The notes under the pieces are model-generated. The model searched no databases, was not told where the DNA came from, and was given only the letters and a program-made list of their open reading frames with translations. DNA of 64,000 bases from the human T2T-CHM13v2.0 reference genome, Homo sapiens. The position numbers and the translations under genes were made by a program. The stretch is from assembly GCF_009914755.1 (NCBI RefSeq), contig NC_060935.1; one strand, 5' to 3'. Of the stretch, positions 27,958 to 31,329 are shown piece after piece (positions within the stretch are counted from its first letter, which is position 1; the number at the start of each line of letters is the position of its first letter).

Positions 27958-28158
27958 TCTGTCTCCTTCTTTCCTCTCCATGCAGTAAAACAGAGCTGCA
28001 GGCAGTCAATTTCGAGTCAGTGGGCTGTGAAAAGCAGTTAGAATAATAGTTTATTGACCCTGAATGTGGCAGCTGGAACTGAGGGTCGGCTGGGCTCAGG
28101 CACAGTGTAATGGTCACAATAGAAGTTTGATCATCTTTGATCATTTCCTTGGACTTTA

Positions 28159-28726
<568 letters not shown>

Positions 28727-29051
28727 TCAGATTACCTTTGGAAGCTGGACTTTTCTCCTAAGCACTGCAGTGATATGCCTTCTTATTCACTCTGGTGATC
28801 ATGGATTTTCCGGTAGAAATGTAATTATAAATAAAAAGTACATCTTCAAACTACTTTAATACTTCCATATTAGAAGCAATTTGTTTGTAAGTGGAATTAT
28901 TAATAAAAACATAGTTGAAAGCAGAGACTAAGGAAATTCAAAGAGAAAGAGGAGAACATGAATATATAAATAAAGGATGGCCTATATTTTTACATAATTT
29001 GTGAATTAAAAAATAGAAATGTATTGTCATAGACTGTATAAACTCATGCTT

Positions 29052-29088
29052 CCTTCGATAGCTCAGCTGGTAGAGCAGAGGACTGTCG
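29052..29088 (+). pseudogene. tRNA-Tyr(GTA) 5' exon fragment (37 nt), non-functional
   Basis: ccttcgatagctcagctggtagagcagaggactgtcg is 35/37 identical to recalled human tRNA-Tyr positions 1-37; no 3' half or B box. Confidence 0.9.
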
Positions 29089-29526
29089 AAGACACGGAAT
29101 CAACCTAAACGTCCATCAGTGGTAGATTGGATAAAGAAAATGTGGTACATACGCACCATAGAATACTATGTAGCCATAATAAGGACTGAGATCATGTCCT
29201 TTGCCGGACCATCAATGGAGCTGGAGGCCATTATCCTTAGCAAGCTAACACAGGAACAGAAAACCAAATACCGCATGTTTTCACGTATGAGTAGGAGCTA
29301 AATGATGAGAACACAGAGACACAGAAGAGAACAACACACACTGGGGCCTATTGGAGGGTGGAGGCTGGGAGGTGGGTGAGGACCAGGAAAAATAACTAAT
29401 GGATACCAGGCTTAATACCTGGGTGTTGAAGTAATCTGTACAACCAATCCCCATGACACAAGTTTACCTATGTAACAGAGCTGTGCATGCACCCCTGAAC
29501 TTAAAAGTCAAAAGATAAAAAATAAA
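29089..29526 (+). mobile_element. 5'-truncated L1PA15/16-like 3' end fused to the tRNA fragment
   Basis: ORF2 tail (MVDWIKKMWYI...LEAIILSKLTQEQKTKY), 3' UTR aggaaaaataactaatgg...ccccatgacacaagtttacctatgtaac, A-rich tail, TSD core ataaactca. Confidence 0.9.
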
Positions 29527-31329
29527 AGAATACATAAACTCAAAATGTGTAAATTCTGGGCAAATTTTGTCATGGCCTTTGGAAAACATTTCCAAACAAT
29601 AACTTGTTACTTTATTTTACAAGTCACATGTTTATTTCATTGCTCGTGTTGGAATTTATTCATTTTATGATCCTTTGGTTCTATTTATATTGTGATAAAG
29701 ACTATAAAAATGACTTTTTTTTTCTTTTTGAAAGAAATCACCAATACAGATAAAAAGCATACAAATATCATTTGGTATTTGTAATCTGAATTATGATACA
29801 GTTTTTCTATTGGACTGGAAAAATAACCTTTGTGAATTACATAGAATCTATGATTTTAGGCAAGCTGTTTCCAGTATTAAAGAGCACTTATGTCAATTGT
29901 AATATGTTGTGAGTTATTTGTTTTCATTTAATGTCTTTTTATTTAAAATAGGGAAAGTCTGGTAAACAAGCTGCTCAACTAAAATTAAAAAATTTTCTTA
30001 TTAAATAACCAATGTAAATAGAATCAAATGCTATGGGAGAAACAGAAAGAAAGCATAATGCATTTAAGAAGAAAAGAATCTAGGTGAAGGGCAAGAATAT
30101 AGAAATAAAATCATATTTTGTTTTTCAGAACAACAATGCAGCAAGTGTACACATTAAATCTGCATGAACTGAATGTGGAAACGCTTGTCTACTGAGGAGA
30201 TAAGTGAAGGGGGGCCTCTTAAGGTTGACATGAGCGCCCAATAGATTCAACTTCACTTTTATCAGCTGTTCATGCATTTATGTCAACCACCTGAGGTCTT
30301 TAGCTTTGTTTGATTGTTCAGTTCAATTATTGCAAGAAAGGAGTTCAGAAAATAAGCTTTATTTATTTTTCTCTCTCATAATGTATGCCATTGTCTCAAC
30401 AAAAGTTGGGACTTTAGACATATATTTAACAGACCTGAACACAAAGACTTAACAAGTTGTTTCTTTATTATTAACCCTTTCCTAATTGTGCATTTCACTG
30501 GTTATTGTTAATGGTTTTTTTTTTTTCAAATTTTAGAGATAATAATTCTTGATTAAGATATGTCCATTTCCAGTGTCTGGTAGTTATTTAAGAAATAATT
30601 TTGATAGAGATAATATAGAAGTGGAAATAAAATGTAGAAGCCTATTGTGAAGTTTATCTTTAGAAAGTTTTCATTAAAAAACTTATTTTCCAGAAATCAG
30701 ATGTGGTGTGTTTCTGCAAGAATTATGAAACAAAATAAAACCAAATAAATTATACCACTAGAACCTTCATAGTACTCTTCCTAAAAGGAATAATTCACCA
30801 TGCATATTTTAAAAGTGTTCAGGATCATAGATTCAATTAAATTTAATTGCCATATGTGGAGTTCCTACTAAGTGGTCGGCCAGAATGAAGGCATATCAGG
30901 CAGAGTTATGACTTACCAACTCTGCAAATACACCTGCAAGCTACTGCACCTGTGGCTTTCCTTCCATAGCTCAAGGAAAATAGGCAAAAAGCAATAAGAA
31001 TAGGAGGTCGTGTGAAACAGTGAAAGCAGCCATTCTTATTCTTTTGAAATTGTGTACATCCTTCAGCATAATACAGACAAACTAGAGTTTTGATGTATCC
31101 AGTACTTGGGAGAAGAGCTATTGTATCCAGTACAATTCCCCAATGCATATTTTACCATTTAGTCTATTCATTCTGGAACCTGGACCAAATGTATACTTTG
31201 TGGTTATTTCCATTTTTCTTATGGCATATTGTGATACCAATAATCTATCATCAAATTAGTTCTTAAGATGAGACCCAAATGACCATTTATGCTAGAAACT
31301 CTTGATATTCCAAAATTAGCCCATACTTG

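What the first reader, a model, noticed from the sequence alone, without database searches (positions are those of the whole stretch)
29031..29542. Pre-tRNA-Tyr 5'-exon / L1 chimeric retroinsertion: candidate fossil of TSEN/RTCB ligation to L1 RNA
Seen in sequence: left TSD agactgtataaactca (29031-29046), then a 5-nt spacer tgctt, then 37 nt matching tRNA-Tyr(GTA) positions 1-37 (29052-29088, 2 mismatches, one a CpG decay). An L1PA15/16-like ORF2 tail, 3' UTR and A tail follow with no gap, then the right TSD agaatacataaactca (29527-29542, 13/16 identical). Both parts lie inside one TSD pair, so they inserted together. The tRNA stops one base after the anticodon (1-nt ambiguity with the next A). 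Established: human tRNA-Tyr genes carry an intron at 37/38; TSEN leaves the 5' exon with a 2',3'-cyclic phosphate; RTCB joins such ends to 5'-OH RNA; RTCB has been shown to ligate U6 to L1 RNA, producing U6/L1 chimeras. Inference: a tRNA splicing intermediate was mis-ligated in trans to an L1 RNA fragment and retrotransposed. This would extend the U6/L1 pathway to RTCB's canonical substrate. I cannot verify that it is undescribed.
Basis: partly seen in the sequence, partly recalled or inferred. Interest (0 to 1): 0.88.

Follow-up and report, generated by a model that had tools for sequence, protein, structure and literature searches.

The report
Pre-tRNA-Tyr leader-exon fused to L1
An old jumping-gene insertion in a human intron joins the first half of an unfinished tyrosine tRNA to the tail of an L1 element; the locus is already in a published catalogue, but its sequence shows that the tRNA piece is a tRNA-splicing intermediate, which makes a mis-ligation origin testable.

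Summary
Window 29047-29088 is a 5-nt leader plus the tRNA-Tyr-GTA 5' exon, fused in sense to about 440 nt of L1 3' end. Similar direct repeats flank the whole. The "spacer" tgctt is identical to the 5' leader of one tRNA-Tyr gene (T2T chr14:14,880,383), so the source was an unprocessed pre-tRNA.

The locus is not undescribed. Law & Burns (Cell Genomics 2026, Table S3) list it as a tRNA/LINE-1 chimera that arrived as one unit. They explain tRNA chimeras by tRNA halves and twin priming. In the passages I saw, the pre-tRNA origin is not mentioned.

- A second chimera (chr8, L1PB4) has the same leader and the same exon end.
- 9 of 10 L1-free retro-copies of pre-tRNA-Tyr keep 6-17 nt of intron; the chimeras keep 0-2.
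- In the published table, all 3 sense-oriented half-tRNA chimeras come from intron-containing families, against 1 of 18 others (p=0.003).

Limits:
- The junction can be read at nt 35 or nt 37.
- Sequence cannot separate RTCB ligation from ORF2p template switching onto the same fragment.
- The numbers are small.

Verdict: a real, already catalogued chimera. Splicing-intermediate origin is likely; ligation is plausible (about 0.45) and unproven.

The parts
29031..29046 (+).
   Evidence: Law & Burns Table S3 gives a 9-bp TSD (G/A)TAAACTCA for this locus.
29047..29051 (+). 5' leader of pre-tRNA-Tyr (tgctt), not removed by RNase P
   Evidence: Identical to the 5 nt before the tRNA-Tyr gene at T2T chr14:14,880,383 (L019). 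This is 1 of 14 full-length tRNA-Tyr loci compared. BLAST with that gene aligns the window from leader position -5 (query 11-50). See alignment A1.
29052..29088 (+). tRNA-Tyr-GTA 5' exon, nt 1-37 (G26A, A36C). In the alternative reading only nt 1-35 (to 29086) are tRNA
29089..29301 (+). L1 ORF2 C-terminal tail: 70 codons plus a TAA stop at 29299-29301. It starts at AAGACA, where L1 copies read ...aatagca|AAGACA
   Evidence: Translation. L1 copies aligned. RepeatMasker label L1PA13. The Pfam scan of the 70 aa found nothing.
29302..29509 (+). L1 3' UTR
   Evidence: Aligned to 9 other L1 copies over about 420-440 nt.
29510..29526 (+). Short degenerate A-rich tail (aaaagataaaaaataaa)
29527..29542 (+). 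Right target-site duplication (13 of 16 identical to the left copy; exact core 29534-29542)
   Evidence: Table S3.

Best explanation
Shown. This is one L1-mediated (target-primed) retro-insertion of two RNAs joined head to tail in sense. The first is the 5' leader plus 5' exon of pre-tRNA-Tyr-GTA. It was transcribed from the ancestor of the gene now at T2T chr14:14,880,383. The second is the last roughly 440 nt of an L1PA13-type RNA.

Inferred, step 1 (about 0.75). The tRNA piece is the 'leader-exon' product of the tRNA splicing endonuclease TSEN. It was cut at the 5' splice site (G37) before RNase P had removed the leader. It would therefore carry a 2',3'-cyclic phosphate.

Inferred, step 2 (about 0.45 overall). 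Instead of being joined to its own 3' exon, this end was ligated by the tRNA ligase RTCB to a 5'-OH end of a broken L1 RNA. This is the reaction shown experimentally for U6/L1. ORF2p then copied the chimeric RNA from its poly(A) end through to the Pol III start site of the leader.
For: 1. Pre-tRNA origin. The 5 nt before the exon equal the leader of 1 of 14 full-length tRNA-Tyr loci. The same (g)tgctt/gctt leader heads a chr18 L1-free copy and the chr8 chimera.
2. No intron bases at the junction: window 0, chr8 0-2. In contrast, 9 of 10 resolved L1-free retro-copies of pre-tRNA-Tyr keep 6-17 nt of intron before their repeat. Fisher p=0.045 for the two clean chimeras and p=0.014 with chrX added. 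The chimeras therefore used a cut exon, not the unspliced precursor.
3. None of the 17 non-gene hits runs from the exon straight into the 3' exon, so mature spliced tRNA was not the template.
4. Published catalogue of 21 tRNA/L1 chimeras. The 3 sense-oriented half-length ones are Tyr, Tyr and Arg-AGA (anticodon TCT), all intron-containing families. Among the other 18, only 1 (Ile-ATA) is. Fisher p=0.003, or p=0.016 without the window locus.
5. No filler and no microhomology at the window junction in either reading.
6. Leader-exon fragments of tRNA-Tyr are a real RNA species. They accumulate when RTCB is knocked down or oxidised (passages of bioRxiv 10.1101/2022.04.28.489951). TSEN leaves a 2',3'-cyclic phosphate on the 5' exon (PMC10485636).
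7. RtcB joins U6>p to 5'-OH L1 RNA in vitro and in extracts. Its authors suggest the same for other small RNAs cut by cyclic-phosphate-forming nucleases (PMC6789731).
Against: 1. DNA sequence cannot tell ligation before reverse transcription from template switching during it.
2. The junction is ambiguous. The C at 29087 fits L1 and the G at 29088 fits the tRNA. RepeatMasker ends the tRNA at nt 35.
3. In the same catalogue, antisense halves of intronless tRNAs (Val, Thr, Gly, Met, Asp, Glu, Lys) also break at nt 36-39. Such halves also carry cyclic phosphates, yet none appears in sense. A cyclic phosphate alone therefore does not predict the outcome.
4. The chr8 junction allows 2 nt (TA) of overlap between the source gene's intron and L1.
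5. The numbers are small and the half/sense grouping of the table was made after seeing it.
6. The Arg-TCT locus was taken from the table only; I could not fetch its sequence.
7. The direct repeat by itself is not significant.
Confidence: 0.45

Rival explanations
1. Template switching. ORF2p copied a 5'-broken L1 RNA to its end. It then jumped onto the free 3' end of a TSEN-cut pre-tRNA-Tyr leader-exon and copied it to the Pol III start. There was no RNA ligation.
For: This is the classical model for small-RNA/L1 chimeras. Law & Burns offer it beside ligation for sense-oriented chimeras and Moldovan et al. keep it for other small RNAs. L1 RT clearly reaches pre-tRNA-Tyr: 10 L1-free retro-copies exist. 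The chrX locus reads L1 - tRNA exon - L1. That layout is easier to get with two jumps than with RTCB, which needs a 5'-OH on the tRNA. The chr8 junction allows 2 nt of microhomology.
Against: It gives no reason why sense-oriented halves come only from intron-containing families, while abundant halves of intronless tRNAs appear only in antisense. There is no microhomology or filler at the window junction. From recall only, not checked here: a 3' phosphate on the acceptor RNA inhibits template switching by a group II intron RT.
Confidence: 0.35
2. The tRNA piece is not a splicing intermediate. An end-extended Tyr precursor, spliced or unspliced, was cut in the anticodon region at nt 35 or near nt 37/38. 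The nuclease would be of the anticodon-loop type (angiogenin, RNase T2 or RNase L). The fragment was then joined to L1 by either route.
For: RepeatMasker ends the tRNA at nt 35 and the C at 29087 matches L1. An A-to-G transition in L1 is a commoner change than the A-to-C transversion needed for the nt-37 reading. Anticodon-loop breaks at nt 36-39 are the rule in the antisense chimeras. A preprint reports that splicing precedes end-processing, so leader-bearing spliced tRNA exists. The A at 29089 could be A38.
Against: The chr8 and chrX copies run cleanly through G37 (...TATAG...TGTAG). Established knowledge, not tested here: in the unspliced precursor the anticodon pairs with the intron. The family bias towards intron-containing tRNAs stays unexplained.
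Confidence: 0.12
3. Two separate events, or a copy of a transcribed master. Either a tRNA fragment landed beside an older L1, or the locus is a daughter of a chimeric master element of proto-SINE type.
For: The flanking repeat alone is weak. For a master: a second L1 on chr6 (T2T 164,695,844, minus strand) is 5'-truncated at the same AAGAC. It carries the same 4 nt GTCG between its own 13-nt repeat and the L1. The motif CTGTCGAAGACA... has only 3 hits in the genome.
Against: The published alignment analysis scores the tRNA piece and the L1 as arriving in the same interval. The tRNA piece has no repeats of its own. The two L1 parts share only 2 derived sites in 358 columns, fewer than other pairs of copies. 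A half tRNA lacks the B box needed for Pol III transcription (established knowledge).
Confidence: 0.06

Closest known systems
tRNA/LINE-1 chimeric insertions (Law & Burns, Cell Genomics 2026, PMC13174262; Table S3, tRNA sheet)
   Same: This exact locus is a row of the table: hg38 chr11:131741770-131741804 (tRNA-Tyr-TAC 1-35) plus L1PA13 at chr11:131741805-131742245. It has a 9-bp TSD, an EN motif and contemporaneous arrival.
   Different: The paper treats tRNA chimeras as halves of tRNAs cut by angiogenin, RNase T2 or RNase L, mostly antisense and made by twin priming. This locus is sense-oriented, carries a pre-tRNA leader and stops at the splice site. In the main text 'Tyr' has 0 occurrences and the shown 'intron' passages concern mRNAs (12 of 23 places shown).
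U6/L1 chimeric pseudogenes made by RtcB ligation (Moldovan et al., PNAS 2019, PMC6789731)
   Same: A Pol III small RNA whose 3' end carries a 2',3'-cyclic phosphate is joined in sense to a variably 5'-truncated L1 inside one TSD pair.
   Different: For U6 the ligation was shown biochemically; here it is inferred. The partner is a half molecule, a splicing intermediate, not a mature full-length RNA.
Tailless retropseudogenes of processed and unprocessed tRNAs (Schmitz et al. 2004, recalled and not held; Noll et al. 2015, PMC5322556, passages)
   Same: The source is the same RNA, pre-tRNA with its leader. Ten such pre-tRNA-Tyr copies exist in this genome.
   Different: Those copies have no L1 part and no A tail. 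They end inside the intron, and their repeats overlap the RNA 3' end (internal priming). The window element ends at the exon and continues into L1 with an A tail.
5' leader-exon fragments of pre-tRNA-Tyr seen when RTCB or CLP1 function is impaired (bioRxiv 10.1101/2022.04.28.489951, passages; CLP1 mouse papers seen only as references)
   Same: The composition is the same: leader plus 5' exon, without intron.
   Different: Those are RNAs in living cells. This is a DNA fossil of such an RNA joined to L1.
tRNA-headed SINEs with LINE-derived tails
   Same: The layout is a tRNA-derived head, a LINE 3' tail and an A tail.
   Different: Only the 5' half of the tRNA is present, so there is no B box. 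There is no family of copies, at most one truncated sibling.

Membership tests
L1-mediated chimeric retro-insertion (small RNA/L1) | Both parts lie inside one pair of target-site duplications | tested here: met
   13 of 16 identical with a 9-nt exact core, directly outside the leader and directly after the A-rich tail. Statistically weak on its own (166 of 2000 and 268 of 5000 shuffles).
L1-mediated chimeric retro-insertion (small RNA/L1) | The 3' part is an L1 3' end with an A tail | tested here: met
   The L1 part aligns to 9 L1 copies over about 420-440 nt. It has an ORF2-like tail of 70 codons and a 17-nt degenerate A-rich tail. Pfam found nothing.
L1-mediated chimeric retro-insertion (small RNA/L1) | Both parts arrive at the same time in species comparisons | not testable with these tools
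   No primate genomes are held. Law & Burns score it as contemporaneous (method).
RTCB-ligated chimera of the U6/L1 type | The 5' partner is in sense and ends at a natural 2',3'-cyclic-phosphate terminus | tested here: inconclusive
   Sense orientation is met. The end is at G37, the TSEN 5' splice site, in one reading and at U35 in the other. It is clean at G37 in the chr8 and chrX copies. The end chemistry cannot be read from DNA.
RTCB-ligated chimera of the U6/L1 type | No microhomology or filler at the junction | tested here: met
   Window 0 nt in either reading; chr8 0-2 nt.
RTCB-ligated chimera of the U6/L1 type | The chimeric RNA forms without reverse transcription and depends on RtcB | not testable with these tools
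   This needs RNA and biochemical experiments.
Pre-tRNA splicing intermediate (leader-5' exon) | A gene-specific 5' leader is present; intron and 3' exon are absent | tested here: met
   The leader tgctt equals that of the chr14:14,880,383 gene, 1 of 14. The next bases are L1, not that gene's intron tactta.
Tailless tRNA retropseudogene | No A tail and no LINE part; the 3' end lies in a loop and overlaps the TSD | tested here: not met
   The exon is followed by 440 nt of L1 and an A-rich tail.
Antisense tRNA-half/L1 chimera (twin-priming type) | The tRNA half is antisense to the L1 and derives from mature tRNA | tested here: not met
   Same strand as the L1 and a leader is present.
Functional tRNA-Tyr gene | A complete cloverleaf with a 3' exon | tested here: not met
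   ARAGORN found 0 genes in 28000-30500. Rfam gave no tRNA hit in 28500-30000.

The most novel reading that the evidence does not exclude
Sense-oriented half-tRNA/L1 chimeras are a class of their own. They would be fossils of the tRNA ligase complex joining its own canonical substrate, the TSEN-cut leader-5' exon of an intron-containing pre-tRNA, to broken L1 RNA in trans. The joined RNA was then retrotransposed. Three extra features may apply:
- One tRNA-Tyr gene was a repeated donor (window, chr8, chr18).
- There may be a preferred L1 acceptor context, GCA|AAGA (window and chrX).
- One chimeric RNA species may have inserted twice (window and chr6:164.7 Mb).
Probability: 0.4. Interest if true: 0.7.

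Novelty: new variant of a known kind. Interest (0 to 1): 0.5.

Why it matters
If the ligation reading is right, RTCB-made chimeric RNAs are not a peculiarity of U6. They would also arise from the enzyme's everyday substrate, and tRNA splicing intermediates would leak into the germline genome through L1. That would give a genomic read-out of failed tRNA exon ligation. Failed ligation is the state linked to CLP1/TSEN neurodegeneration and to oxidative inactivation of RTCB. It would also split the published 'tRNA/LINE-1 chimera' class into two kinds with different mechanisms. Even if template switching is the true route, the leader and the exon-boundary end show that L1 reverse transcriptase met a TSEN product. 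This bears on where in the cell L1 RNPs and tRNA splicing meet.

Tried and rejected
- ARAGORN and Rfam at E up to 10 do not see the half tRNA. This is uninformative.
- The Pfam scan of the 70-aa ORF2 tail found no family.
- L1 variant test. I asked whether 'GTCG' before AAGAC is an L1 subfamily variant, which would turn the junction into a GT microhomology. The pattern has only 3 hits genome-wide and one is a canonical L1 with two changes. Eight L1 copies read (a/g)(g/a)c(a/g)|AAGAC, with no TG forms. Rejected.
- Shared master test. The window and the chr6 sibling share 2 derived sites in 358 columns, fewer than other pairs. No support.
- chrX:115,877,670 as a third clean chimera. It is L1 ORF2 - aagat - exon 1-37 - L1, with about 730 nt of L1 missing between the two L1 parts. 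It is tripartite or an insertion with deletion, so I did not count it as clean.
- Other intron-containing families. I tried to fetch Arg-TCT, Leu-CAA and Ile-TAT genes in order to scan for their exon/L1 chimeras and to inspect the chr14 Arg-TCT chimera. An 8-kb guess held only a tRNA-Ser-AGA. Those families and intronless controls were not scanned.
- Literature searches for a printed account of tRNA-exon/L1 ligation: (full-text terms RtcB / LINE-1 / chimeric / U6 snRNA; tRNA exon / LINE-1 / RTCB; pre-tRNA / LINE-1 / chimeric / template switching). None was found. The 2026 tRNA-ligase review names only U6/L1 (passages).
- Schmitz et al. 2004 is not held.
Full report
**1. What is in the sequence**

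- agactgtataaactca at 29031-29046
- tgctt at 29047-29051
- ccttcgatagctcagctggtagagcagaggactgtcg at 29052-29088
- L1 sequence from 29089, a short degenerate A-rich tail at 29510-29526, and agaatacataaactca at 29527-29542

The frame from 29089 reads 70 ORF2-like codons ending at a TAA at 29299-29301. A Pfam scan of these 70 residues found nothing. The stretch nevertheless aligns over about 420-440 nt with nine other L1 copies of the genome. ARAGORN and Rfam do not report a tRNA here, as expected for half a molecule.

**2. Is the tRNA match real?**

The window's own assembly (T2T-CHM13, G000) can be searched.
- A 35-nt pattern of the tRNA piece with up to 3 mismatches has 26 hits in 3.1 Gb, against 0 for the reversed control.
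- A CpG-tolerant version has 31 hits against 0.
- Of the 31, 12 are intact tRNA-Tyr-GTA genes with an intron and a 3' exon, and 2 are diverged full-length copies.
- Against the genes the window piece has two differences, G26A at a CpG and A36C.
- The 79-nt junction-spanning stretch matches over its full length only at this locus (1 of 40 scored matches, 169 candidates).

**3. The spacer is a pre-tRNA leader**

The 5 nt before the exon (tgctt) are identical to the 5 nt before the tRNA-Tyr gene at T2T chr14:14,880,383 (L019...ccgtgctt|CCTTCG). None of the other 13 full-length loci has this leader. BLAST with that gene aligns the window from leader position -5. Alignment A1 shows it. With 14 leaders to match, a 5-nt identity has a chance of about 14/1024. 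The source RNA therefore still carried its 5' leader and came from that gene's ancestor.

**4. The locus is already in print**

Law & Burns (Cell Genomics 2026, PMC13174262; bioRxiv 2025) list 21 tRNA/LINE-1 chimeras. Their Table S3 (supplement read) holds this row: L1PA13 chr11:131741805-131742245 (+), tRNA-Tyr-TAC 1-35 at chr11:131741770-131741804 (+). The row gives a 9-bp TSD (G/A)TAAACTCA / ATAAACT(C/T)A, EN motif yes, and detection both by proximity and by alignment timing. Their method calls a chimera when the L1 and the adjacent 5' insertion arrive in the same interval of a 447- or 470-species alignment.

It also matters because the flanking repeat alone is weak by my shuffles: 13/16 was reached in 166 of 2000 and an exact 9-mer in 268 of 5000.

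The paper explains tRNA chimeras as tRNA halves made by RNase T2, angiogenin or RNase L, mostly antisense and formed by twin priming. For sense-oriented small RNAs it names ligation or template switching in general (passages). 'Tyr' does not occur in its main text, and the intron passages I saw concern mRNAs (12 of 23 places shown). The pre-tRNA origin is not stated in what I saw.

**5. Where exactly is the junction?**

Eight L1 copies read ...aatagca|AAGACA at the point where the window reads ...ctgtcg|AAGACA. Base 29088 (G) fits tRNA G37 and not L1 (A). Base 29087 (C) fits L1 (C) and not tRNA A36. Two readings each cost one substitution:
- tRNA 1-37 with A36C, followed by L1 from AAGAC
- tRNA 1-35, followed by L1 from CA with an A-to-G change (RepeatMasker's choice)

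In neither reading is there microhomology or filler. The source gene's intron starts tactta.

**6. Sibling loci**

(a) chr8:123,246,467 (L063) is the paper's chr8 row (tRNA-Tyr-TAT 1-37 / L1PB4).
- It has a repeat aaagatttaagacta / aaaaacttaagagta (about 13 of 17).
- It has the leader gctt and exon 1-37 (G34A, ...CTATAG).
- L1 then starts at TAGCC, where six other L1 copies read ...tatttt|TAGCC.
- This is a second, independent event from the same gene with the same architecture. It runs cleanly through G37, with at most 2 nt (TA) shared between intron and L1.

(b) chrX:115,877,670 (L031) has exon 1-37 (...CTGTAG) followed by L1 AAGATTTCA.
- L1 ORF2 in the same orientation also lies directly upstream, with about 730 nt of L1 missing between the two parts and aagat before the exon.
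- It is tripartite or an insertion with deletion, so I do not count it as a clean case.

(c) Eleven hits (ten events, one duplicated on chr17) are L1-free retro-copies with their own repeats and no A tail.
- Each consists of leader, exon and part of the intron.
- They match the known 'tailless retropseudogenes' of unprocessed tRNAs (Noll et al. 2015, passages).
- The distance from G37 to their repeat is 6-17 nt in 9 of 10 and 2 nt in one.
- The chimeras carry 0-2 nt. Fisher p=0.045 for window plus chr8 against the ten, and p=0.014 with chrX.

(d) Three hits stayed unresolved (L033, L061, L062).

(e) None of the 17 non-gene hits continues from the exon straight into the 3' exon. Spliced mature tRNA-Tyr left no such copies.

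**7. The published table re-read**

Of the 21 rows, 16 are antisense. These are Val, Met x3, Thr, Lys x2, Glu x3, Arg-CGY, Gly x2, Ile-ATT, Asp and Ile-ATA. Two rows are sense and full length (Glu). Three are sense and half length: Tyr 1-37, Tyr 1-35 (this locus) and Arg-AGA 1-38.

RepeatMasker names tRNAs by codon, so Arg-AGA is anticodon TCT. Pre-tRNA-Arg-UCU and pre-tRNA-Tyr-GUA are the intron-containing substrates used for the TSEN structures (passage). Thus 3 of 3 sense halves come from intron-containing families, against 1 of 18 others (Ile-ATA). Fisher p=0.003, or p=0.016 leaving this locus out.

**8. Mechanism**

Shown: one retro-insertion of pre-tRNA-Tyr leader-5' exon joined in sense to an L1 3' end.

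Likely (about 0.75): the tRNA piece is the TSEN product.
- It has the leader, no intron and no 3' exon.
- Such 5'-leader-exon fragments of tRNA-Tyr accumulate when RTCB is depleted or oxidised (preprint passages).
- TSEN leaves a 2',3'-cyclic phosphate on the 5' exon.

Inferred (about 0.45): RTCB joined it to a 5'-OH L1 fragment. This reaction has been shown for U6>p. Its authors suggested it for other small RNAs cut by cyclic-phosphate-forming nucleases, and they list the tRNA splicing endonuclease among possible sources of 5'-OH L1 ends.

The main rival (about 0.35) is ORF2p jumping from the end of a broken L1 RNA onto the 3' end of the same leader-exon. It predicts the same DNA. The family and orientation bias, and the lack of microhomology, lean towards ligation. 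The chrX tripartite structure and the possible TA overlap at chr8 lean towards jumping.

A smaller rival (about 0.12) is a cut by another nuclease at nt 35 or near nt 37/38 of an end-extended tRNA. Separate insertions or a transcribed master copy are unlikely (about 0.06).

**9. Unexplained observations**

- The L1 acceptor sites of the window and of chrX share the 7-mer GCA|AAGA at different places in L1. This 7-mer occurs at 10 of 12,240 positions in eight L1 stretches, and AAGA at 135 of 12,240.
- An L1 at chr6:164,695,844 (minus strand) is 5'-truncated at the same AAGAC. It carries GTCG, the window's last four tRNA-side bases including the odd C36, between its own 13-nt repeat and the L1. 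CTGTCGAAGACA... with up to 2 mismatches has only 3 hits in the genome. This suggests a second, truncated insertion of the same chimeric RNA species. However, the L1 parts share only 2 derived sites in 358 columns.

**10. Verdict**

The object is a catalogued member of a recently described class. The sequence shows something the catalogue does not say in what I saw: the tRNA part is a leader-bearing splicing intermediate from one identifiable gene. My full-text searches found no printed account of tRNA-exon/L1 ligation. The 2026 tRNA-ligase review names only U6/L1.

Noticed in passing
L005 = T2T chr6:164,694,323-164,697,370 (minus strand; junction at chr6:164,695,844-164,695,870): An L1 is 5'-truncated at the same AAGAC as the window element. 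Its own 13-nt TSD is agaatcaggtgct. Four extra bases, GTCG, lie between the TSD and the L1. They are identical to the window's tRNA-side bases 34-37, including the unusual C36. Only 3 hits genome-wide match the junction motif. It may be a truncated second insertion of the same chimeric RNA.
   Followed up: partly
L031 = T2T chrX:115,876,170-115,879,204 (exon at chrX:115,877,670-115,877,706): The tRNA-Tyr 5' exon (exactly nt 1-37) sits between two same-sense parts of one L1 ORF2. About 730 nt of L1 are missing between the parts and AAGAT lies on both sides. The downstream L1 starts in the same GCA|AAGA context as in the window. The locus is not in the published tRNA/L1 table.
   Followed up: partly
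Loci L021, L024, L025, L026, L029/L030, L034, L035, L036, L060, L064 (T2T chr2, 6, 9, 18, 17, 6, 11, X, 2, 12): These are ten tailless retro-copies of pre-tRNA-Tyr, each with leader, 5' exon and 2-17 nt of intron. Each has its own TSD and no A tail. Their leaders and introns point to different source genes. The chr18 copy shares the window's leader gtgctt.
   Followed up: yes
Anticodon position 34 in retro-copies L035, L060, L063, L064 (also the full-length pseudogene L032): Four of 17 non-gene tRNA-Tyr exon copies carry the same non-CpG change, G34A (CTGTAG to CTATAG). Position 34 of pre-tRNA-Tyr receives queuosine before splicing, according to the title of PMC12313893 (seen in a search listing only). 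Whether this is a reverse-transcription signature was not tested.
   Followed up: no
All 31 tRNA-Tyr 5'-exon hits in G000: No retro-copy of spliced, mature tRNA-Tyr was found. Every non-gene copy derives from a precursor or from a cut exon.
   Followed up: partly
window 29089-29300: The L1 part keeps several CpGs (acacgg, aacgtcc, tacgca, gccgga, accgca, cacgta) at sites where other copies mostly read TG or CA. It differs from the majority of eight related copies at 35 of 358 columns.
   Followed up: no
L020/L042 (T2T chr2:27,092,469): ARAGORN labels this intact tRNA-Tyr-GTA gene as tRNA-Asp(gtc) because it places the intron 2 nt early. This is an annotation pitfall for intron-containing tRNAs.
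   Followed up: no
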